DNA of 64,000 nucleotides from Callorhinchus milii. Its lineage: Eukaryota. Positions 1 through 50,534 of the stretch are shown here, piece by piece (within the stretch, counting starts at the first letter, position 1; the number at the start of each line of letters is the position of its first letter). The stretch is from assembly GCF_018977255.1 (NCBI RefSeq), contig NW_024704742.1:116438001-116502000 (forward strand), in the 5' to 3' direction. A program made the position numbers and the translations under genes. The notes beneath the pieces are model-generated. The model did no database searches. It was not told the DNA's origin and was given only the letters and a program-made list of their open reading frames with translations.

Positions 1-71
1 ACAGGGCCTTGAAGGTTGAGGTGGGAGGACAAGCGGTGGAGAAGGATAGCGTGGTCGACCGTATCGAATGC
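1..71 (-). mobile_element. Inverted 5' segment of L2 LINE (RT domain), runs off the window start
   Basis: Reverse complement translates AFDTVDHAILLHRLSSHLNLQGP, an L2/CR1 RT motif; matches ILLHRLSSHLNL in the L2 copy at 40231-41380. Confidence 0.85.
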
Positions 72-1119
72 TCCCCCTTGGTGACATGGGGTTAACTTCC
101 ACATGGGGTTAACTTCCACATATATGCGGATGACGCCCAACTCAACCTTACCTCCTCTACCCTCAACTCCACGACCACCCATCAGTCTGCCTGTCTGACA
201 TCGAGTCCTGGACGAGAGACAACTTTCTTCAGCTCAACGTGCGCAAAACTGAGGCCCTCCTGATTGGCTCACCTCAGCGCCTCCGCACCTCAGGCGCTGA
301 CAGCATCAGCATCCAAGGCTGCACTCTCCACCTCTCAAAGCCAGTCAGGAACCTCGGGGTTCTGTTCGACCCTGAGCTGTCCTTTCTTCCTCATATCCGC
401 GCCACAACTGGCACCGCCTTCCATCACCTCCGGAACATCGCCAGACTATGGCACTACCTCACCTCTCACGCTGCTGAAACACTGGTCCACGCCTTTATCA
501 CCTCAAGGCTGGACTATGGGAACTCTCTCCTCGCCGGCCTTCCCGGCACCTCCCTCCACAAGCTGCAGGTCATTCAGAACTCTGCAGCTCGTGTACTGTC
601 CCGCACCAGGCTTCGGGACCACATCACTCCCACCCTCGCTCGCCTCCACTGGCTCCCCATCCCCCAGAGGATCGAATTCAAGATCTTCATCCTCACCTAC
701 AAGGCCATTCACGGCCTCGCTCCCTCCTACCTCTCCGACCTACTATCCCCCTACTTACCTGCCCGTACCCTCCGTTCCTCTGGCTCCAGTCTGCTCCACA
801 TCCCCCGCCCCAACCACCTTACCATCGGTGGCCGGGCCTTCAGCCTCTCAGTCCCTCGGCTCTGGAACGCCATCCCCCAGTGCCTTCACCTTGCCTCCTC
901 CCTTTCCTCCTCCAAGGCCGGTCTCAAGACCTTTCTTTTCAACCGTGCCTTCAGCTCCACTCTCAACTGTCTACCCCCTCCTCGCTCCCTCCCTTCCCTC
1001 CCCTCACCCTGACTATTTCCCCCCTGCTCGGGTCCTAACCCAACTGTCCAGCGCCTTGGGACGTCCTCCCTACGTAAAAGGCGCTCTATAAATGGAATCT
1101 TGTTGTCGTTGTTGTTGTT
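72..1119 (+). mobile_element. L2-clade LINE, 5'-truncated (RT YADD region, ORF2 C-terminus, 3' tail)
   Basis: LPLGD..GVNFHIYADDAQL, then ORF 239..1012 with VRNLGVLFD, LVHAFITSRLDYGNSLL, LHWLPIPQRIEFKI; 3' stem-loop and (TTG)n tail. Confidence 0.95.
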
Positions 1120-1124
1120 AAAGC

Positions 1125-1461
1125 ATATCGCAGGATTCACTGTAAACTCTGTATTTTTGTAGAAGAATGCGGCAGCCAATTTGTACCATAAACAACCATG
1201 AAGTGAATGACCAATTTTATCTCTGGTGAATTGTAAACCAGGACCCCAGGCAAGGCCTTTCTCCTTTCAAATAGTGTCACAAAATCTGTAGCATCCACCT
1301 AACATCCATGAACTGGCAGACTGGACCTTGGTTTAACATCTCATCTGAAGGATGGCACCTCCAACAACACATTGCATCCAGGCAATGTATCAGACTGAGT
1401 TCAAACATGGAATTTGTTTTTGACTCAGAGGCAAAAGTGCCACCATCAGAGCCAGGCTGAT
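1125..1461 (-). mobile_element. Old tRNA-derived DeuSINE (SacSINE1/LmeSINE-like)
   Basis: Reverse complement gives head tcagcctggctc..., body ggaggtgccatccttcagatgagatgttaaacc and Deu core aaattggctgccgc. Confidence 0.8.
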
Positions 1462-2204
1462 AGTGGTGTGCTGCTACTGCACGGTTAACTTTCAAAAAGT
1501 TATTAAAGGAGAGGTGTCGCTGTTTATGAAGGGAGGGTGAAGTTAGCCAGAAAAAATAATAAGCTTACACACAAGCAAATTAATGATACTGCATTTCCAC
1601 AATACAATGATTTTTCTCAACACAACTTCCATTACTGATTATCGAATTATGTGTTTGCAAATACAGAGGAAAGCTTTGCCAACCTCAGTAAAACTCCAAT
1701 GTTGCTTTATCTTAGTGCCAGTCAGACAGTTTGCTCTGAGTTAAAATCTCTTAAGCTGCATGCATTTACTACAATATAAATACAAGAACATGTATGCTTT
1801 ATTGAATAATAGATTTTACAAACACCATATGTTATGTCCCAAGAGATTTTGCAGTGGCTTTAGTTTTTGTGTATGATTAATAGAGCTCACTGGCAGATTG
1901 ACTGTGTTAGGTAATTCAGATTAGTAACATATTGTAGGTTTGATGAGAAAATAGGTGTTGAAAATTATTTGGAGAGATGCCAAAATAGTGACATTGACTA
2001 GAGGATTGAAAGAGCATATTACATTAATGTTCAAACCATTAAAGATATGTGTTCCACAATATAGAAAAAAACATCCTGTCACATCCGCTTGCATTCAAGT
2101 AATTCTGGTTCTAACACTTTCAGGGGCGACTAAGCAGCACACATTTCCACTAACCTGTTGTACCTGGTATTAAATGTAACCCAGACCTAAGGGATAACAT
2201 TTTC

Positions 2205-2460
2205 ATTGATATAATACCATTGATCTAACGCTTCTTACATTGAAATGTCTCAAAGCTCTTCACAAATAATTTCTGTCATACAAACAGCCATGGGATGAAT
2301 GATCAAGACCACCAGAAGAGACTTTTCTTTTTGAATAGTGCCATGGGATCTTTAACTTCCAATTGATGGGCAGACAGAACCTAACTTTAACATTTTATCT
2401 GAAAGACAGCAGGACTGCTTCAGTACTGCATTGGAGTATCAGGCTGGACCATGAGCTCAA
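2205..2460 (-). mobile_element. Old DeuSINE fragment
   Basis: ttgaatagtgccatgggatctttaac motif shared with the other copies. Confidence 0.7.
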
Positions 2461-6164: not shown

Positions 6165-6838
6165 GGTGACATCATCTGCAGACATGGGGTCAACTTCCAC
6201 ATGTATGCAGAAGACACCCAACTGTACCTCTCTGCTTCCACCCTTGACTCCAGGATCACTGCTGTCCTAACAGAATGTCTGTCAGACATCAAGTCCTGGA
6301 TGAGAGCAAACTTTCTACAGTTGAACGTCAACAAGATTGAGGCTCTCCTGATTGGTTTCTGTCAGCGCCTCCTCACCTCATGCACTGACATCATCACCAT
6401 CCATGGTGCACACTCCACATTGCTAAACCAGTCTGGAACCTTGGAGTCTTGTTTGACTCTCAACTATCCTTTCTACCCCACACCTGTGCCATGACCCACT
6501 CTGCTTCCCCCACCTCCGCAATATCGCCCGGCCTGCTTCACGTCCCCACCTCGCTCATCCCACTATTGGCAGGCGGGCCTTCTGCCACTCTGCCTCCACC
6601 CTCTGAAACTCCATCCCACAATGATTTAATCTTGCCCCCTCCCTTGCCTCCTTCAAGACCCATCTCAAGACCCTCCTCTTTGACCATGCTTTTGATCACC
6701 CTGCTTCCCCCCCTGCCCTCCGCTGTCCCCAATTCCCACCCCCAGCTCGAGTCCGAAACTCTGTCTGTCCAGCACCTTGGGATGTCCTCCTAATGTGAAA
6801 GGAACTATACAAATGTAATTTTGTTGTTGTTGGTGGTG
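6165..6838 (+). mobile_element. L2 LINE fragment with ~340-bp internal deletion
   Basis: GDIICRHGVNFHMYAEDTQLY..CLSDIKSWMRANFLQLN; jumps near 6532 relative to the 72-1119 copy; (TTG)n tail. Confidence 0.9.
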
Positions 6839-7089
6839 ATAGTGTTGCTCCCATGATTAAATAGCTTGTCACATAGATGAATTACTGAAGGCCTTCTGGC
6901 TCTCATCACACCACACGTCAGTATAAGATCCTATCTCGAGGAGGGGAGGCGGAGAAAGGGCCAAAAGATGGGGAAAGCACCTGACCAAGTATTTTGTGTC
7001 TGTTACATCTTATAACCCAAAGATGATGAACATTAAATATTTACAAATCCCTTATATTATCATCGTGAATAATGGCATTAAACATATAG

Positions 7090-10743: not shown

Positions 10744-11040
10744 GTCCTGTAGCTCAGTGGTTAGAGCACTCGCCTTGCAAGCGAGACACCTGGACAATCT
10801 TGGACAAGTTTTCTTACTCCACACGCCTAATAATAATCCCTCCAACACAAAACAATAATAAATTGGTCATTTTCAATCCACGACTGTTTGTGAGACACTG
10901 CTGTGCGCGATTGGCTGCTGCGTTTTGCCCACAAATATACAGTCAATTAACTTTACAGCATATTCTGTGAAGCACTTTGAGATGTCTAGAAGACGTGAAA
11001 AGTGCTATATCAAATGCAAGGATTATTATTATTATTATTA
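10744..11040 (+). mobile_element. Young tRNA-Ala-headed SINE, B-box deleted
   Basis: gtcctgtagctcagtggttagagcactcgcc head lacking ggttcgattcc; Deu core; (TTA)n tail. Confidence 0.9.
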
Positions 11041-11049
11041 ATGTTGCTC

Positions 11050-12814: not shown

Positions 12815-13155
12815 CAATGATTGGACAGATTTCAGATTTTCTTGTGGATATGAGATAATTGAGAGGACCTGATAGAGGTATTTTATGTTAGGAAAGGAAT
12901 TAATACATTGAACATGAATAGATAGTTTCCATTTATTGATAAGCCCAAAACAAGGGTCAGGTCTAACAGGGAGTTGAGGAGGAACATCTTTATGGAGAGA
13001 GATGTTGAGAATGTGAAATGGAAGTTGTGGTTGAAGCAAAAAGTATCAATGCATTGAAGAGGAAACTTGATGCATACACGAGGGAAAAGAGAATAAAGCT
13101 ATATAAGAGAGGAGACTAGGAAGCATGAAGGCTCATGTGGAGTATAGGCTCACCA
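12815..13155 (+). mobile_element. CR1 3' fragment, degraded
   Basis: agaggacctgatagaggta...gagttgaggaggaacatctt...gagggaaaagagaataaagc. Confidence 0.6.
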
Positions 13156-13157
13156 CA

Positions 13158-13466
13158 GGAGTTCTGTAGCTCAGTGGTTAGAGCACTCACCTCGCAAGTG
13201 AGTGACCTGGGTTTGATTCCCAGCAGGGTGAAACCTTGGGGAAGTTTCCTTACTCCACACCCCTGATAATAATCCCTCAAGAAAAAAATAAAGAAATTGG
13301 TCACTTCAATCCATGCCTATTTGTGGGACACTGCTGTGTGCAATTAGCTGCCGCGTTTTGCCCACAAAATATACAGTCAATTCACTTTACAGTATATTCT
13401 GTGAAACCCTTTGAGACATCATGAAGATGTGATAAAGTCCATATCAAATGCAAGGATTATTATTAT
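13158..13466 (+). mobile_element. Young tRNA-Ala-headed SINE, full length (short variant)
   Basis: tRNA-like head, ccttggggaagtttccttactcc, Deu core, L2-type tail with (TTA)n. Confidence 0.95.
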
Positions 13467-13929
13467 AAGTGAAGATTGTCATTCCTTAACACCCTTTTGA
13501 GTGTGAATGCAGTATAATAAAAACAAGAATTGTCTTTACAAATGTAAATTTTTAATCAAATTCTCAAACACCCCATCCTGTTTACTTTCAGTTGATCATA
13601 TGTTATTTCCCCTATTTCTTGGTTACAGCTTTTCCATAAGCTTTTATGTCTCCATCTGACCTCCTAGTTACAGGTCCAAAAAAAGTTGCTCTGGTCTCTA
13701 ACAGACTCAGTTTCTCTCTGTTAAATATGAGCAACAAAGCTATTTGAAATGGTCTGAATTGAACTGAACTTTAGTCTAATTTAGAGTAAAAAATTACCCT
13801 CCTTGGGGTTGGTAAGTGGTGTCTCTTTGGATCTGAGCTGACTTCAACATGATGCTCTTGGCAATGGAATGTTGGAATCAAGTCAATCCTCCCCAATCCT
13901 GGGGGATCAGCTGGGTTTCTAACACAAAC

Positions 13930-23135: not shown

Positions 23136-25828
23136 GGAATACGCTGCTTCTGTTCTCCAACAATGATATTCTTCACCCTGAGAGCACAAAATTTCACCAA
23201 ATCTCTTTTGCAAACTGTCTTTTTATCTTTGCAACTGTATCCAGTTAAGGGGTAAAGGTCTCCCTCTCAGGTAGAAGTAAAATCGGCCCAGTCAGTGAGG
23301 CTCCCCAGTCAGGAGCATGTAGGTATGAATCCATAGTCTGCCATTAAATTGGCATTAAATTACCAGTCTCTGAAAGGCCTCTCAGACAGGCAATGTGCTT
23401 GTAACATTAGTAGAGTAGAAATGTTCATCTGACACTGGGATAGAGACAACTTTACACTTTAGCTGCCACAGTGCTTGATAATGTACTGACGCTGAATTCA
23501 AGAACTAGAGGTCTGCACCCAACAACAAATTACATTTGGATAAGGTCTTTCTCCTCACTGCTGTTTATAGGATGTTGCTGTGCACAAATTGGCCAACGCA
23601 TTCACTTGAAAAAAACATAATCACTACACTTTACAGTGAATCCTTTCAAGCTCTTTAAGACCTGACGTGAATGGCGCCTTAAAAAAATGCAAAGATTATT
23701 AGCATTTTACTAACTCTTTTGCTCCATGAACAAATATTCACTATGAAAGGTTATTTTTTAAAAAATTATATTAGATATTGCCCAATGCTTTTCTTCTCTG
23801 TTTGAATACTTCAGCCAGAAATTTCGCAGCACCCTATTTCACCTCAATCTCTGATGTAAACTTTTTTGGGAATCCAGGTTGGCAGCATTGACCCAGCGCA
23901 AAGGGAAGGGGCCAGAGTCACACCTGCAAAACCTATCAGTACACCTCGTTTCACTGTCAAACAGTTACATATTCTAATACCACAGGCAATGGCACTGAAC
24001 CATTATTTGCATCTGTGCTGGTGTAAGGATCGAGTATCATGGCCACAGGAGGGAAATTGGACCCAATTGAATCTAAATATTAGAGCAGGCCTGAATGAAC
24101 TGGGGCAACGATATTGACTAAATATCTTGTCAGTTGGACAGCTGTGTGCGTTGTTTTTGTGAACTTTTTGACCATCTGTTTCGTATTATCCCACAAGATG
24201 GTCTTTTAATCCTAAATCTCGCCTGCATCTCCCTACATCATATCTTATTCAAATTAGGATAAGCTCGGATTGTGCAGTCGGGTAATTTATCAATTATTTG
24301 CCCGAATTATCGTTGCCCGTTATTAACTCAGATTGATTTAATGTTTTTGTTCCATTAAACACGTTTTACTTGGCGCCTCACAATAAGCACAAAGAAAAGT
24401 GTTGCATAATATGGCTTTATTATCAGTTACAGAAAATTGCAATTTGCATAATATTATGAAAGATCCCTCAGGCAACCAGACCTGCCAGGGCTCCAATTAC
24501 AACAGACATCTGTATGACAATGGTAACTGCAGCAAATGGAAATTCAGGGCTGATAAACCCTATTCAGTAGTGGAATTAGATGGATAAAGTTCATTTTGTG
24601 ATGCACTTCATAACAATATAGAGGATACAGGCTATTTTTTTCCCCGGATGACTACTATCAATTCATAATGAGGGGTTTACTGCATTACACACTGGATTAA
24701 CTACATGCGTGGAGAGCCTTTATTATTTCAACACCATTCTTATTAAAATGAGCAAATTATTTAGGATTAGATTCTGGTGAATTGACATGCCTTTGTCATG
24801 TAAATTAATCTCTTTTCACAGAGACACCCAAGCTGCCAGCACCACTTTGCTTCAACATAGGCAGCACTTAAAGCCGGTGAGGAAAGGTACCACTTAAACA
24901 CTTCACCCAGCCTGAACAGTAAGCTTTCTTTCCAGTGTAGACAGAAAGGCCACAGGAAGTCATGAGCAGCATCTTAGATACGGGATAGTTGGAAGCCTTG
25001 TCCCTGAATGTGCCTAATCGCACGGCTCTATCGCGTTCATTTTCCAAAGAATTGCTGTCACCTTTCAAAGGCTATTTCTATGAATGAGAAAGTGTCCACT
25101 TGCCTTTCCTTCAGATCAGGATTGTGTCCGCGTTACTGAAGCTTAAGTCCAAGGAACTGAGTCATGCAGTCAACGCACACAGCAGGGATGGCAGCTGGAT
25201 GATGGCGTGGCCCCATTTCAATGATGTGACATTAATAGACTGGCATCAAGCAATCTTAAGATTTCCATTAGAAGACATATGGCAATGGATCAGCTATCTC
25301 TCTGCATCCTTAATGTAGATGTGGGACAGCTTGTCCCATGGTGTGAGCACATGCCTCCCCCACAAGACTTCCTGTACAGAACTTGGTGTTATTACAGTCT
25401 GTATAAAATTCTTCTTTGTCAGAATATAAATGTTTTCTCCAGCTTTTGGATCAGTATTTACCCAGTATTGTGTGCCCAGATTCATTAATTGTGATGCTCT
25501 ACTCTCACGAAGAGAATAAATCTGTTACTCAGATTTAAGCAGTGTCTATACCACACATTCCTCTGAATTAACAAACAACCAACTGAGCCAAAATGACACC
25601 TAAACTGACTGGATTACATTATAGATCACACATAACCATAACTTAGTCGAGGAACCACTTATCTGGTATGTGAATCAGTACCTATAGCAAAACTAAAGAG
25701 AAAGGAATAAGATAGTTTGTCCAGAGGAGGGAAGTGAGAATCTCACACCCACAGATAACGATGACTGGATATTAGGGCCTTGAGGCGCCCTCCCAAGTGA
25801 AAGGCACTATATAAATGTAAATTTAACT

Positions 25829-26140
25829 GGAGTCCTGTAGCTCAGTGGTTAGAGAACTCACCTCGGAAGCGAGAGACCTGGATTCGATTCCAGGCAGGGC
25901 AAAACCTTGGGCATGTTTCCTTACTCCACACGCCTGATAATAATCCTTCAAGAAAAAAATAATAAAATTGGTTACTTCAATCCACGACTGTTTGTGGGAC
26001 ACTGTTGTACACAATTGGCTGCCGCATTTCGCCCACAAATATGCAGTCAGTTCCCTTTACAGTATATTCTGTGAAGCGCTTTGAGACGTCTAGAAGATGT
26101 GAAAAATGCTATATCAAATGCAAGGATTATTATTATTATT
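25829..26140 (+). mobile_element. Young tRNA-Ala-headed SINE, full length
   Basis: Complete head, Deu core and (TTA)n tail. Confidence 0.95.
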
Positions 26141-26659
26141 TAATATAAATTGTGGTTGGAGTTGTTATTGGATATATTGGATACAGTGGCTGTGTAACTT
26201 TTACACGCTGGTTGAATGCTCTCCACTACCTCGCTCCCTCCCTCACCTTGTGCAAGGTCTATCTGAAGAAGCACTGCTTTGGCTGCACTTTCCCTCCCTC
26301 CCCCTTGGGTCCCACCTCTAGCTTGTGTGCTAAGCCAGCAGTGCCGCATCTCCCTCTGTGTCAAGGTAAATTTGTATTATATTTTGCTTACAGTATTAGT
26401 ACACCAGATAAATGTTAATGTTGCCTAGTGACTTCAGCTGATAGCATCTTCAACTGACAGCCAAATCCTAATACACAGTATTAACTTCTTTCCTTACACC
26501 TATAACTGGATGGAAATAAAAGGTGCTGAATATTTGGAATTTGAACAGTGCTAACAATGCATAATGTTCCATTTCATTCCAGTTACCATCACCTGTTCCT
26601 TTGGGGAGGACAAAAAGTGCAACGGAAATAAAATATATTAAACACTGCTGATAATAATT

Positions 26660-35972: not shown

Positions 35973-36598
35973 ATTTGCCCTTATTTTGTATTGAAACATC
36001 TATTCTATCCTGTGATGTGACCTGATTGTTTTGATGCCTCCATCAGGGTTGTATTTTTTACCTTTGAGTTGGGAGCCAAAGGACTGAATCAGTCTAAATT
36101 CATGGGATTGTGCAACGTACGCAAATTGGGGTGACGGCTGTGCTCTTATTCAACACCATTAGGATCTCACGGGCAATTTTTTGCTATCGGTTTATGCGTG
36201 CTCTGTGTTGTTATGTAAATGGAGTGGAGGAGACTAATGCACTGCTTTCTGCATTTACTGTTCGTAGAATATAAATGAAACATCAATGGGGTTTTATACT
36301 CTCAAATCGTAGAGAGAAATACTGGGTTTAGCCTACAATACCAGCAATAGGGCTACTGGCAGCATCGCTGTTCAGTGCTGTACAGTATTGGGTGGTATAC
36401 CATCAATGCGCATTGCAGTGGATTTTCCTGTCACGGTCACCCTAATTTGCATACATTGCACAATCCCATGAAATTGGACTGATTCAGTCCTTTGGCTCCC
36501 AACTCAAAAGTAAAAAATACAACCCTGGTGGAGGCATCAAAACAATCAAGTCACATCACAGGATGGAATAAATGTTTCAATACAAAATAAGGGCAAAT
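35973..36598. repeat. Long inverted repeat: 163-bp arms (35973-36135, 36436-36598), 300-bp spacer
   Basis: Manual alignment: 10 mismatches in 163 bp, no indels. Confidence 0.95.
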
Positions 36599-39157: not shown

Positions 39158-39775
39158 GGAGTCCTGTAGCTCAGTGGTTAGAGCACTGGCCTTGCAAGCG
39201 AGAGACCTGGGTTCGATTCCCGGCAGGGCAAAACCTTGGGCAAGTTTCCTTACTCCACACTCCTGATAATAATCCCTCAAGAAAAAAACAATAATAATTT
39301 GGAACTCAATCCACGACTGTATGTGGGACACTGCTGTGCACAATTGGCTGCCACGTCTCGCCCACAAAATATAGTCAATTCACTTTACAGTGTATTCTAT
39401 GAAGCACTTTGAGATGTCTCGAAGACGTGGAGTCCTGTAGCTCAGTGGTTAGAGCACTCACCTCGGAAGTGAGAGACCTGGGTTCGATTCCCAGCAGGGC
39501 GAAACCTTGGGCAAGTTTCCTTACTCCACATGCCTGATAATGATCCCTCAAGAAAAAAAAATTTGGTCTCTTCAATCCACAACTGTTTGTGGGACACTGC
39601 TGTGTGAGATTGGCTGCTGTGTTTCACCCACAAATATACAGTCAATTCACTTTACAGTATATTCTGTGAAGCGCTTTGAGAAGTCTAGAAGACTTGATAA
39701 GCGCTATATCAAATGCAAAGATTATAATTATTATTATTATTAAGGCACTATATCAAATGCAAGGATTATTATTAT
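39158..39775 (+). mobile_element. Young SINE (39158-39428 plus 39742-39775) with a second full copy nested at 39429-39741
   Basis: Two heads in series followed by two tails in series. Confidence 0.9.
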
Positions 39776-40230
39776 AACCTCTGCAGACTACTCCCTGTTC
39801 AAATCGCTTACACCTGGTCCCTGATCTTATTTATGCCATTGTTACATAGAAAGGAAAGAGCAGAAAAAGACCCAGAGAACTATTGGGTTAATTTCTGGGA
39901 TAATTCCACCATTTCACCTCTAATTCCACTCTACGCCTTCCCTTGTGTTATCTTCTCCCTGTATTACCCCCACCCCTTCAGAAAGAAAATATGTTTTACT
40001 TCTGAACAGAATCTCTCGATCCACATTCTTCACTGTAGGTAGGACTTTTTCCATCTTTTGGCTTCTTTCAGTGCTGTGAGAAGCTACCATGTGTGAAGGC
40101 TGCTATATAATTGCAAGTTGGTACTGTTGTTGTTCTATTGCAGACAGTAACAAAGATAGCTCCGCAGAGAAATAACTGCAGAAAAACTCAATTAACTAAC
40201 AAGAGGCCAGTCTTTCACTGTAGCATTGAT

Positions 40231-41380
40231 ACAACAACAATAACAAAATTACATTTGCATAGCACCTTTCACATCAGGAGGACGTCCCCGAGCTAAGGGT
40301 TGAGATTGGGGAGGGTGGAGAGCAGGGAGATCGAAAGCACGGTCGAAGAGGAGGGTTTTGAGATGAGTCTTGAAGGAGGCAAGGGAGGGGGCGAGATGGA
40401 GGGACTGCGGGATGGAGTTCCAGAGGGTGGGGGCAGCGTGGCAAAAGGCTTGCCCGATAATGGTGAGCCTGCTGGGGAGCCGGAGCCTGCTGAGCGGAGA
40501 GAGCAGCCAGGAAGGTAGGGGGTTAGGAGGTCGCAGAGGGAGGGTGGAGCAAGACCATGGAGGGCTTTGAAGGTGAGGACCAAGATCTTGAACTGTATCC
40601 TCTGAGTGATGGGAAGCCAGTGGAGTTAGGCAAGGATGGAGGTGATAGGGTCACAGAGCCTGGTGTGGAAGAGGACACATGCTGCAGAGTTCTGGATGAT
40701 CTCCAGCCTATGGAGGGAGGAGTTGGGGAGGCCGTCAAGTAAGGAGTTTGCATAGTCAAGCCTTGATGTAATGAATGGGTGTATGAGGGTTTCAGTGGCC
40801 TGCAGTGTGAAACAGTGGTGGAGCTGGGCGAGGTGGGGGAAGGCAGAGCTCATGGCACGGACGTGGGGTAGAAAGGATAGTTGAGAGTCAAACAAGGTGC
40901 CAAGGTTCCGAACTGGCTTAGCAAGGTGGAGTGTGCATCTTTGGATGGTGGTGCTGTCAGCGCCTGAGGTGAGGAGGCGCTGACAAGAGCCAATCAGGAG
41001 AGTCTCAGTCTTGTTGACATTCAACTGAAGAACGTTAGCTCTCATCCAGGACTTGATGTCTGACAGACATTCTGTCAGGACAGCAGTGGTCCTGGAGTCA
41101 AGGATGGAGGCAGAGAGGTACAATTGGGTGTTATCCGTATACATATGGAAGTTGACCTCATGTCTGTGATTGATGTCACCAAGAGGGAGCCTATAGATGT
41201 TGAAGAGAAGGGGACCAAGGACAGAGCCCTGAGGATCGCCGCACAAGACGGTGCGGGGGCTAGAGGAGAAACTGTTTGTGGAGATAAAGAGGAGGCGGTT
41301 TGAGAGGTATGATCTGAACCGTTCAAGGACAGAATTGTGAAGGTTGAGGTGCGAGGAGAGACGATGGAGGAGAATAGAGA
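40231..41380 (-). mobile_element. L2 LINE, 5'-truncated (RT plus C-terminus)
   Basis: ORF 40626..41405: RFRSYLSNR, PQGSVLGPLLFNIY, HMYTDNTQLY, FITSRLDYANSLL; tail appears as (CAA)n at 40231. Confidence 0.95.
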
Positions 41381-41406
41381 TATTTCCTGGGCAGTGCTCT
41401 GCCATT

Positions 41407-47972: not shown

Positions 47973-48683
47973 AGCACTATATAAAATATTCAAAAATAAA
48001 GTGAGCCTTTCAAAGATCAGTGTAGAATAACCATTTTATTCAGTGAAATTAAATTCCAACGTCTCTTTTTTAAGGCTGATTTTCCAACTTTTGCTAATCA
48101 TTTTCCGATTTAACCCATTCTGCATATCAAAGTCTTTGGAGTTCACTTATAAGGAGGCTCCAGTCATACTGGAATCACACGTCAGCTTTCAGAGATTAGA
48201 TACCGCTTGTTGTGTGGTCATATCTCTTACTACAGTAGTTGCAGATAGTGGGGAAAATAATCATGTAGTCTTACAAGTAACAAAGAGAAAAACAGAAACG
48301 GAGAAAAAGCACATTCAATATTCCACAAATGAAGAACATTACAGACAGTTTTCACTATTAAAGATGGAATAGTAATAAATATTTTACAAATTTGTCCTGC
48401 CCACCCCCACCTCCCACAGTACAATATATAGTGGTTTAAAGCATTGCTGCCTGCAGAATAAGTGATCTCAAGAATAAGTCATCTCTCTGCATCAGCACAG
48501 AGATTGAGAATCTCGGTTATTTCCAGAAATCAGGTTATCTCGGTATCTTGAGCCTTGAGGTAGACATGAACAAGACAGACTCCTGTTGGATATAATCTAA
48601 CTATTGTAATCTAGGCACCACTTGTATACCATACATTTCTGGGGGTTTTAATGGGCAGATCATACTGTATGTTTAAATTACAT

Positions 48684-48997
48684 GGAGTCCTGTAGCTCAG
48701 TGGTTAGAGTACTCGCCTCACAAGCGAAAGACCTGGGTTCGATTCCTGGCAGGATGAAACCTTGGGTAAGTTTCCTTAGTCCACATGCCTGATAATAATC
48801 CCTCAAGAAAAAAAACAATAATAAAATTGGTCACTTCAATCCACAACTGTTTGTGGGACACTGCTGTGCACAATTGGCTGCCACGTTTTGCCCACAAATG
48901 TACAGTCAATTCACTTTACAGTATATTCTATGAAGCGCTTTGAGACGTCCAGAAGATGTTAAAAGCACTATATCAAATTCAAGGATTATTACTATTA
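48684..48997 (+). mobile_element. Young tRNA-headed SINE, full length
   Basis: Complete head (A- and B-box), Deu core, tail. Confidence 0.95.
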
Positions 48998-50534
48998 GTG
49001 TCTGTTTCAATGTGCTGTCCTTCATTTCTCCATTGATCTCATCAATTGATTTGAAACAATGGCTTAAACTACTGGAAACGGTTTGTGCCATTGAATCCTT
49101 CATACTGCAGCATTGTGTTGTGATATTTAATCACAATAAAACACTCAAGCATAAAGCATCTGCCATTATTATGAATATTTTAGTTTTAACTGTGGAAAGA
49201 ATTAAAACATTTCATTAAAGAGCAGCCTCCATTTATTATTTAACCATGGTCTTTCATTTTGATTCTTTCCCCTCCACTTGCAGCCTCAAACATTCTGTGT
49301 TGTAAAACATTTTTGAGCAGGACACAGCTCCAGAGATTGAAGTGTTGGTGTACAGAGACTCAAAGTGGATATGCATGAGCCAGTCTCCATCAGTTTTCTT
49401 TCCCCAAGCAGACAAGCAGAGAACAAAGGAAGCTCAGTACACACAAGGGAGGCTGGTCAAAGTATTATCTTCAAAGAGAGATGAGGGAACATATCACCAT
49501 GGAAATATTAGATTAAGTATTTCTCTTCCACTTGACCATTATGGTTTCCTGAATTCTCATTACATCTTACATTTCCTGCATCTTGAGAATAAAATTAGGA
49601 ATCAATAAAATACTTGCATTCAACATACGGTTTTGATGGTCACTGACTCATTTTAGGCTTGCTAAAATAGTGCTGTTTGCTTTTGCTTTTGGTTTTCATT
49701 AAAGTAAATGCCCTCATGGGATTCAGCAGGAAATACAGTAAAATACTGCTATTTACAGCAAAACTGCATGCAGTAATGTTTGAAGCAGTAATGGCCCACT
49801 AATGCCCTTTAAAGCAACACACCAAATCTCAACAGCTGCTGATCCCTAAGGGAAGCAATTTCTAGTTCAGCAGACAGATTGAAGTAAATGCTGATGTGAA
49901 ATTAAGGAGAGCTGTGTGAATGGAGTACAGCAATTTGATTCAAACCATCCAAATTAAATGCTTATTAAGGATTGTATTCTCATATCAGGCCAGTCTATCA
50001 GATGATTTCTGTAAGTGAAACCAAGGCAGCAATTAAAGAAAGAATCTCTGAGTCTGTGAAAGTCTGGACATGCTATTATTGTGTAAAACTCCAGGATAAG
50101 TATAGTAAAAGACTCCACTTTCATGCTGCACTAGTTATATTTAAACTATTCACTCAGTTGTAAGCCATTTGACTGTGTAATTGATTACAATTAACTTCCT
50201 GGCCGTTTGTGGGACATTACTGTGTGAAAATTGAACTTCTGCATTTCCAAAAGCACACAGTCACTGCATTTCATAGTAAAATCCTTTGAAGCGCTTTGAG
50301 ATATCTTGACAACGTGAGTGATAAAGATTATTATTATTGAAGCTTCAACAATCTGCTGCTTTTCAATAGTAAAAGATCCTGTATTTTGGTAATATTGAAT
50401 TTTGCCCCTGTGTTGATGGAATTGTTGCTCTCAACCCAAATAAATCTACACCTGTATTTCTGCATCAAAAATAAAATGTACAATTATACAGGAGCAGGAC
50501 TACAAAATCTTTTAGACTGAAAGGTTACCTGATT

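What the first reader, a model, noticed from the sequence alone, without database searches (positions are those of the whole stretch)
1..1119. L2 LINE with a 5' inversion in twin-priming geometry
Seen: 1-71 encodes RT residues AFDTVDHAILLHRLSSHLNLQGP on the minus strand and joins 5' end to 5' end with the plus-strand L2, which starts at LPLGD, further downstream in the same RT (compare the colinear copy at 40626-41405). Known: this is the layout produced by twin priming, best documented for mammalian L1 and not, to my knowledge, a typical L2 feature. Inferred: ATGC at 68-71 is a junction microhomology, and this is one insertion event, which would suggest twin priming by a fish L2.
Basis: partly seen in the sequence, partly recalled or inferred. 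Interest (0 to 1): 0.72.

Follow-up and report, generated by a model that had tools for sequence, protein, structure and literature searches.

The report
L2 retrotransposon with flipped front piece
A dead copy of an L2-type jumping gene has an upstream piece of itself attached backwards at its front end, a layout typical of mammalian LINE-1 and not seen in cell tests of a fish L2, but the DNA needed to prove that it is one insertion lies outside the window.

Summary
The layout is real in the assembly. Window 1-72 is minus-strand reverse-transcriptase sequence joined 5' end to 5' end with a 5'-truncated, tailed L2-type LINE (68-1119). About 133-136 nt of the element separate position 1 from the plus piece's start. 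The overlap is 5 nt (68-72), not 4. New here: the flank just behind the tail (1122-1128) is the reverse complement of the element's sequence at the plus piece's start, as twin priming predicts for the second primer. Chance is 0.04-1.3% for the 7-mer, 1.4-19% for its 5-nt core, and I found it post hoc. Snap-back copying and nesting of the plus copy in a minus copy are excluded. A younger minus copy nested in the plus copy is not; an unchecked scan note reports such nesting elsewhere in this genome. No genome was held, and no listed contig spanned the junction or showed the upstream flank, so the 5' end, the target-site duplication, read support and the family-wide rate are untested. Best reading: one insertion with a twin-primed 5' inversion (0.6). 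One unconfirmed locus, in a cartilaginous fish according to scan notes.

The parts
1..72 (-). Inverted piece: RT sequence from just before AFDTVDH, running off the window's left end
   Evidence: family contig agrees up to 72 and then leaves (table 7)
68..72 (.). 5-nt overlap shared by both pieces (junction microhomology); position 69 may be a variable letter in the family
   Evidence: loose ends at 72 and 101; chance of 5 nt or more at random head-to-head joins 0.44%
68..1119 (+). 5'-truncated L2-type LINE: end of the RT domain, C-terminal region, 3' UTR and tail; dead (stop and frameshifts near its 5' end)
84..117 (+). Exact 17-nt tandem duplication; 88-100 (13 nt) stands where the family has 9 other letters
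   Evidence: D5; loose end at 101
182..183 (+). 7-nt deletion against the family
   Evidence: table 4
1050..1085 (+). 3' stem-loop (1050-1057 pairs with 1078-1085)
   Evidence: z -3.15, 1 of 200 shuffles as stable
1100..1119 (+). GTT-repeat tail, no poly(A)
1120..1128 (+). Candidate 3' target-site duplication (7-9 nt); 1122-1128 is complementary to the element at the plus piece's start. Inferred; its 5' partner was not seen

Best explanation
One retrotransposition event with a twin-primed 5' inversion. First-strand cDNA was primed at the GTT tail and copied about 1050 nt of RNA, to the codon at 68. The other DNA end of the cut target (a 7-9 nt overhang whose copy is 1120-1128) paired inside the same RNA at that codon and primed a second cDNA that ran about 207 nt towards the RNA's 5' end. 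The two cDNA ends annealed through the 5 nt at 68-72. The 17-nt duplication and 9-nt loss at 84-117 would be slips made while the join was finished. Shown: orientation, order, gap size, overlap, flank match. Inferred: single event, target-site duplication, second priming, timing of the slips. Prediction: 133-136 nt more minus-strand RT upstream of position 1, then a copy of 1120-1126/1128, then unrelated flank.
For: The inverted piece comes from upstream of the plus piece, 204-207 nt before it, so it needs the RNA or a longer cDNA as template. 5-nt junction overlap, 0.44% by chance. Flank 1122-1128 is complementary to the element at the plus start: 0.04% of window positions carry this 7-mer within 15 nt, 1.3% if any site within 10 nt of the start is allowed; for the 5-nt core 1.4% and 19%. 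In L1, the second priming site lay 1-10 nt from the first strand's end in the 32 cases counted (PMC11702581, passages). Both pieces look alike in age: 5 CpG in 72 nt against 2-5 per 72 nt in the plus piece; identity to the old copies 74.5% and 75.4% against 68-87%. No upstream RT sequence follows the tail (score 26.5, random median 24).
Against: The upstream flank, the inverted piece's far end and the 5' duplication were not seen; no junction-spanning contig was listed (one search showed 32 pieces and hid 169,539). The flank match was found after looking, and 2 of its 7 letters rest on another copy and a contig consensus; that consensus (4 contigs) has C where the window has T at 69, which would put a mismatch in the primer. 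The age comparison has little power at 72 nt. ZfL2-1 gave no 5' inversion in human or chicken cells, and its 5-nt overhang was judged too short (PMC4245944, passages). L2-like fragments cover about 10% of this window (6,564 of 64,000 nt in my list), so nesting is common a priori. A rough odds model with assumed inputs gave 0.11-0.95 for this reading against nesting.
Confidence: 0.6

Rival explanations
1. Two insertions: a younger minus-strand L2, 5'-truncated at 72, landed inside the plus-strand copy and joined it by the 5-nt microhomology, as ordinary L2 5' ends do. It would be at least 1.25 kb long with its own tail upstream, and the rest of the plus copy would lie beyond it.
For: L2 5' ends join by microhomology or extra nucleotides (PMC4245944, passages). 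The family is very abundant (about 55,000-65,000 contigs laid per run in X15 and X16, L2 and SINE parts together). An unchecked scan note (e1-7812854) explains another head-to-head L2 pair in this genome by nesting.
Against: It leaves the flank match at 1122-1128 to chance (0.04-19% by tolerance). No age gap between the pieces is visible (weak). The reverse nesting, plus inside minus, is excluded unless a deletion went with it.
Confidence: 0.22
2. One colinear insertion, flipped later or during repair: the 207-nt piece lies between two 5-nt inverted repeats of the element (before AFDT and at the codon at 68) and was inverted by template switching between them.
For: The two 5-mers are inverted repeats in the colinear element. 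If the colinear copy's 5' end had joined the target at the first 5-mer, the flank's 5-nt core is explained without twin priming and the product is almost the same. Nearby slips at 84-117 and 182 show local template switching.
Against: Needs two rare steps. It leaves the two further matching letters (1127-1128) to chance, about 1 in 16.
Confidence: 0.13
3. Assembly artefact: two repeat copies joined wrongly.
For: The junction lies in a high-copy repeat and no read or contig support was listed.
Against: The junction is base-precise with a 5-nt overlap, and the flank match concerns DNA 1 kb away. The unique flank is real: contigs of 925 nt cover 1342-2266 with 7-8 other letters in X15 and X16.
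Confidence: 0.05

Closest known systems
5'-inverted LINE-1 insertions made by twin priming (model of Ostertag and Kazazian 2001, not read; described in PMC2912911, PMC2837659, PMC11702581 and 10.1101/2024.08.27.596794, passages seen)
   Same: Head-to-head join, inverted piece from upstream of the plus piece, junction microhomology, candidate primer match with a short duplication at the inner breakpoints, forward piece longer than the predicted inverted piece.
   Different: The element is not L1 (GTT tail, 3' stem-loop, weak RT-only match to L1 ORF2p). The candidate duplication is 7-9 nt against 10-20 nt in L1. About 31% of L1 copies are inverted (639 of 2068); the L2 rate here is unknown.
Zebrafish ZfL2-1 and Nimb-2_DR insertions in cultured cells (PMC4245944, passages and section 8)
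   Same: Non-L1 vertebrate LINEs with 5' truncation, short target-site duplications (up to 9 bp for ZfL2-1 in HeLa-RC) and microhomology joins.
   Different: ZfL2-1 gave no 5' inversion (30 inserts in HeLa-RC; the DT40 number was not seen); Nimb-2_DR gave one, so a non-L1 inversion is already on record.
cDNA snap-back junctions of R2 protein insertions (PMC11371274, passages)
   Same: Antisense element sequence at the 5' junction of a non-L1 element.
   Different: Snap-back recopies cDNA already made; here the inverted piece has no counterpart within 68-1119.

Membership tests
Twin-primed 5' inversion | Inverted piece joined 5' end to 5' end, derived from upstream of the forward piece | tested here: met
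Twin-primed 5' inversion | Microhomology at the inversion junction | tested here: met
   68-72. Also expected under nesting and later flipping
Twin-primed 5' inversion | Target end complementary to the RNA near the forward piece's start | tested here: inconclusive
   1122-1128 fits, but post hoc and the duplication is inferred from its 3' copy alone
Twin-primed 5' inversion | Whole insert bounded by one target-site duplication; inverted piece ends near the forward piece's start | not testable with these tools
   upstream DNA not obtained
Twin-primed 5' inversion | Both pieces of one subfamily and age | tested here: inconclusive
   CpG and identity alike, low power; one search showed no letter rows for 1-72 and hid 195 rows
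Non-LTR retrotransposon (endonuclease-RT LINE) | RT domain and homologs with endonuclease plus RT | tested here: met
   RVT_1 E 2e-10 on the colinear copy; all 120 listed homologs carry PF00078, many also PF03372/PF14529
LINE-1 clade | Poly(A) tail and close match to L1 ORF2p | tested here: not met
   GTT tail; homolog P0007 matches L1 ORF2p at about 39 bits, RT only
L2 clade | 3' stem-loop followed by a short-repeat tail (feature recalled, not from a call) | tested here: met
   shared with CR1-group elements, and no Rfam family reached its threshold
L2 clade | RT tree placement with named L2 and apart from CR1 and Rex-Babar | not tested
cDNA snap-back | Inverted piece duplicates sequence inside the forward piece | tested here: not met

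The most novel reading that the evidence does not exclude
This L2 family leaves target overhangs long enough (7-9 nt) to prime a second reverse transcription, so twin-primed 5' inversions recur among its many copies and twin priming is a property of overhang length and host, not of L1.
Probability: 0.2. Interest if true: 0.6.

Novelty: new variant of a known kind. Interest (0 to 1): 0.33.

Why it matters
5' inversion is treated as nearly specific to mammalian L1, and the explanation offered is that L2's overhang of about 5 nt is too short to prime (PMC4245944). A natural L2 case with a 7-9 nt duplication and a matching primer site would test that explanation directly, and a genome with very many young L2 copies allows a count of inversions against duplication length. 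As a single dead copy it has no sign of function, and a lone case would show only that the event is possible.

Tried and rejected
Upstream flank: no genome held; contigs of 4 runs laid on 1-2400 listed no junction-spanning piece and no letters beyond position 1; a protein search with the minus-strand frame across the junction found 1 candidate and 0 hits; an exact junction pattern found 0 matches in metagenome contigs; no scan note near the window or alike in sequence. None of these blanks is evidence against the junction. Base rate: 4 metagenome loci were all single-orientation fragments, too few and too distant to use; no second join of this kind showed among the window's other L2 fragments, most of them short 3' ends. 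Ortholog: run X5 holds 1495-1976 at about 90% but the listed contig does not reach the insertion site. Snap-back rejected. Plus copy nested in a minus copy rejected. Searches translated 1-69 in the wrong frame; those blanks were discarded and redone. Pfam finds nothing on the short or C-terminal pieces; the Atlas gave unnamed eukaryotic clusters and an RVT_1 lead at 0.89. Duplication search at 10 other tailed elements gave one clear 7-nt case and nine doubtful 5-8 nt matches.

Full report
Observation. The minus strand of 3-71 reads AFDTVDHAILLHRLSSHLNLQGP. It aligns to the RT domain of full-length endonuclease-RT proteins (55% identity, E 3e-7) and, as DNA, to two colinear copies in the window; 0 of 2000 shuffles reached either score. 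The plus piece starts at 68-70 and runs to a stem-loop and a GTT tail ending at 1119. Of 120 homologs, 115 passed the alignment cut, and in these AFDT lies 78 or 79 residues before HGVNF. So the inverted piece starts 204-207 nt upstream of the plus piece in element coordinates, and 133-136 nt are missing between position 1 and the plus start.

Junction anatomy. Contigs of four runs were laid on 1-2400. One family contig in X1 follows the inverted piece to 72 and then leaves with upstream RT sequence; four others give the family letters before 101. The overlap is therefore 68-72. Random head-to-head joins in this element share 5 nt or more in 0.44% of 50,000 trials. The four-contig consensus has C at the place of 69, so the plus side may match in 4 of 5 letters, although 77 of the 110 motif matches listed read YMLPLG, as the window's ATG does. 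Next to the junction lies an exact 17-nt duplication (84-117), with 13 nt in place of 9 family letters, and a 7-nt deletion at 182. The copy is dead. At 24 of the 35 places listed for 68-1119, 90% or more of X15's depth reads another letter, so it differs from its family by at least 2.3%; 195 rows were hidden and none was shown for 1-72.

In twin priming the target's second end pairs inside the RNA near the point where the first strand stops; in L1 the inner breakpoints were 1-10 nt apart in the 32 cases counted (PMC11702581, passages), and an inner duplication arises when the first strand passes the primer site (10.1101/2024.08.27.596794, passages). The 3' copy of that target end should follow the tail. 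Here 1122-1126 is the reverse complement of 68-72, and 1122-1128 extends this by two letters read from the copy at 40228-41380. Of all window positions from 1200 on, 0.04% carry that 7-mer within 15 nt, and 1.3% carry any 7-mer from within 10 nt of the plus start; for the 5-mer the figures are 1.4% and 19%. I found the match after looking, and the duplication is inferred from one side only. A 7-9 nt duplication is plausible: one SINE in the window has a clear 7-nt one, of 10 elements inspected, and ZfL2-1 made up to 9 bp in HeLa-RC (PMC4245944, passages).

Rivals. Snap-back copying, described for R2 (PMC11371274, passages), would duplicate sequence within 68-1119; there is none beyond a 14-nt match. 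A plus copy nested in a minus copy would leave upstream RT behind the tail; there is none (score 26.5, random median 24, 300 windows). A younger minus copy nested in the plus copy remains open: L2 5' ends join by microhomology anyway, L2-like fragments fill about 10% of the window, and an unchecked scan note reads another head-to-head pair in this genome that way. CpG content and identity to old copies show no age gap, but 72 nt give little power. A later flip between the two 5-nt inverted repeats would give nearly the same product and could explain the 5-nt core of the flank match. A rough model with assumed inputs put the one-event reading at 0.11-0.95 against nesting over 12 settings; it shows the range and is no measurement.

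What could not be done. No genome was held. One search listed 32 contig pieces and hid 169,539; none of those listed spans the junction, and no letters upstream of position 1 were given. A protein search across the junction and a DNA pattern scan were blank. The decisive 140 nt, read support and the family-wide count are untested.

Comparison with what is known. About 31% of human and chimpanzee L1 copies are 5'-inverted, against 1 of 5554 Alu and 4 of 477 SVA (PMC2912911, passages and section 8). In cultured cells ZfL2-1 gave none and Nimb-2_DR one, and the authors blamed L2's short overhang (PMC4245944, passages and section 8; supplements not read, so the DT40 count is unseen). PMC2837659 (passages) gave the defining features. 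PMC13174262 and PMC4350176 (passages) added nothing on L2 inversions; PMC5389967 and PMC6007223 hold the terms in their reference lists only. Nine searches listed no report of a natural L2 5' inversion; most listed papers were seen only as listings, and the library lacks most subscription papers, among them a genomic junction survey, so this is weak evidence of absence. The element is not L1. The label L2, against CR1 or Rex-Babar, was not tested by a tree. The host is named as elephant shark in an earlier scan note, which I did not test.

Verdict. The layout is real in the assembly. One twin-primed insertion 0.60, nesting 0.22, later flip 0.13, artefact 0.05. A new variant of a known kind if it holds; interest 0.33 for one unconfirmed dead copy, about 0.6 if the family does this often (probability 0.2).

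Noticed in passing
window 12-25 and 136-149: A 14-nt inverted match (13 of 14) between the inverted piece and the plus piece; 144 differs from the family in the direction that improves it. Possibly a template switch; may be chance.
   Followed up: partly
window 35973-36135 and 36436-36598: Inverted repeat of 163 nt, 94% alike, arms about 300 nt apart; could be a small fold-back DNA element.
   Followed up: no
window 1342-2266: Runs X15 and X16 differ from the window by 8 and 7 letters in 925, and the five listed places are the same in both; a diverged population or haplotype.
   Followed up: no
window 1495-1976: Run X5 (organism B) holds this unique stretch at about 90% and also a related L2 subfamily; a usable relative for the empty site.
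   Followed up: partly
window 10744-11045, 13155-13471, 25820-26150, 39425-39745, 48675-49005: A family of about 300-nt SINE-like repeats, 80-88% alike, with TTA tails; the first has a 7-nt target-site duplication.
   Followed up: partly
window 6165-6841: Another truncated L2 copy starts at GD, about 12 nt from the plus piece's start, and has an internal deletion.
   Followed up: no
window 3678: A single N.
   Followed up: no
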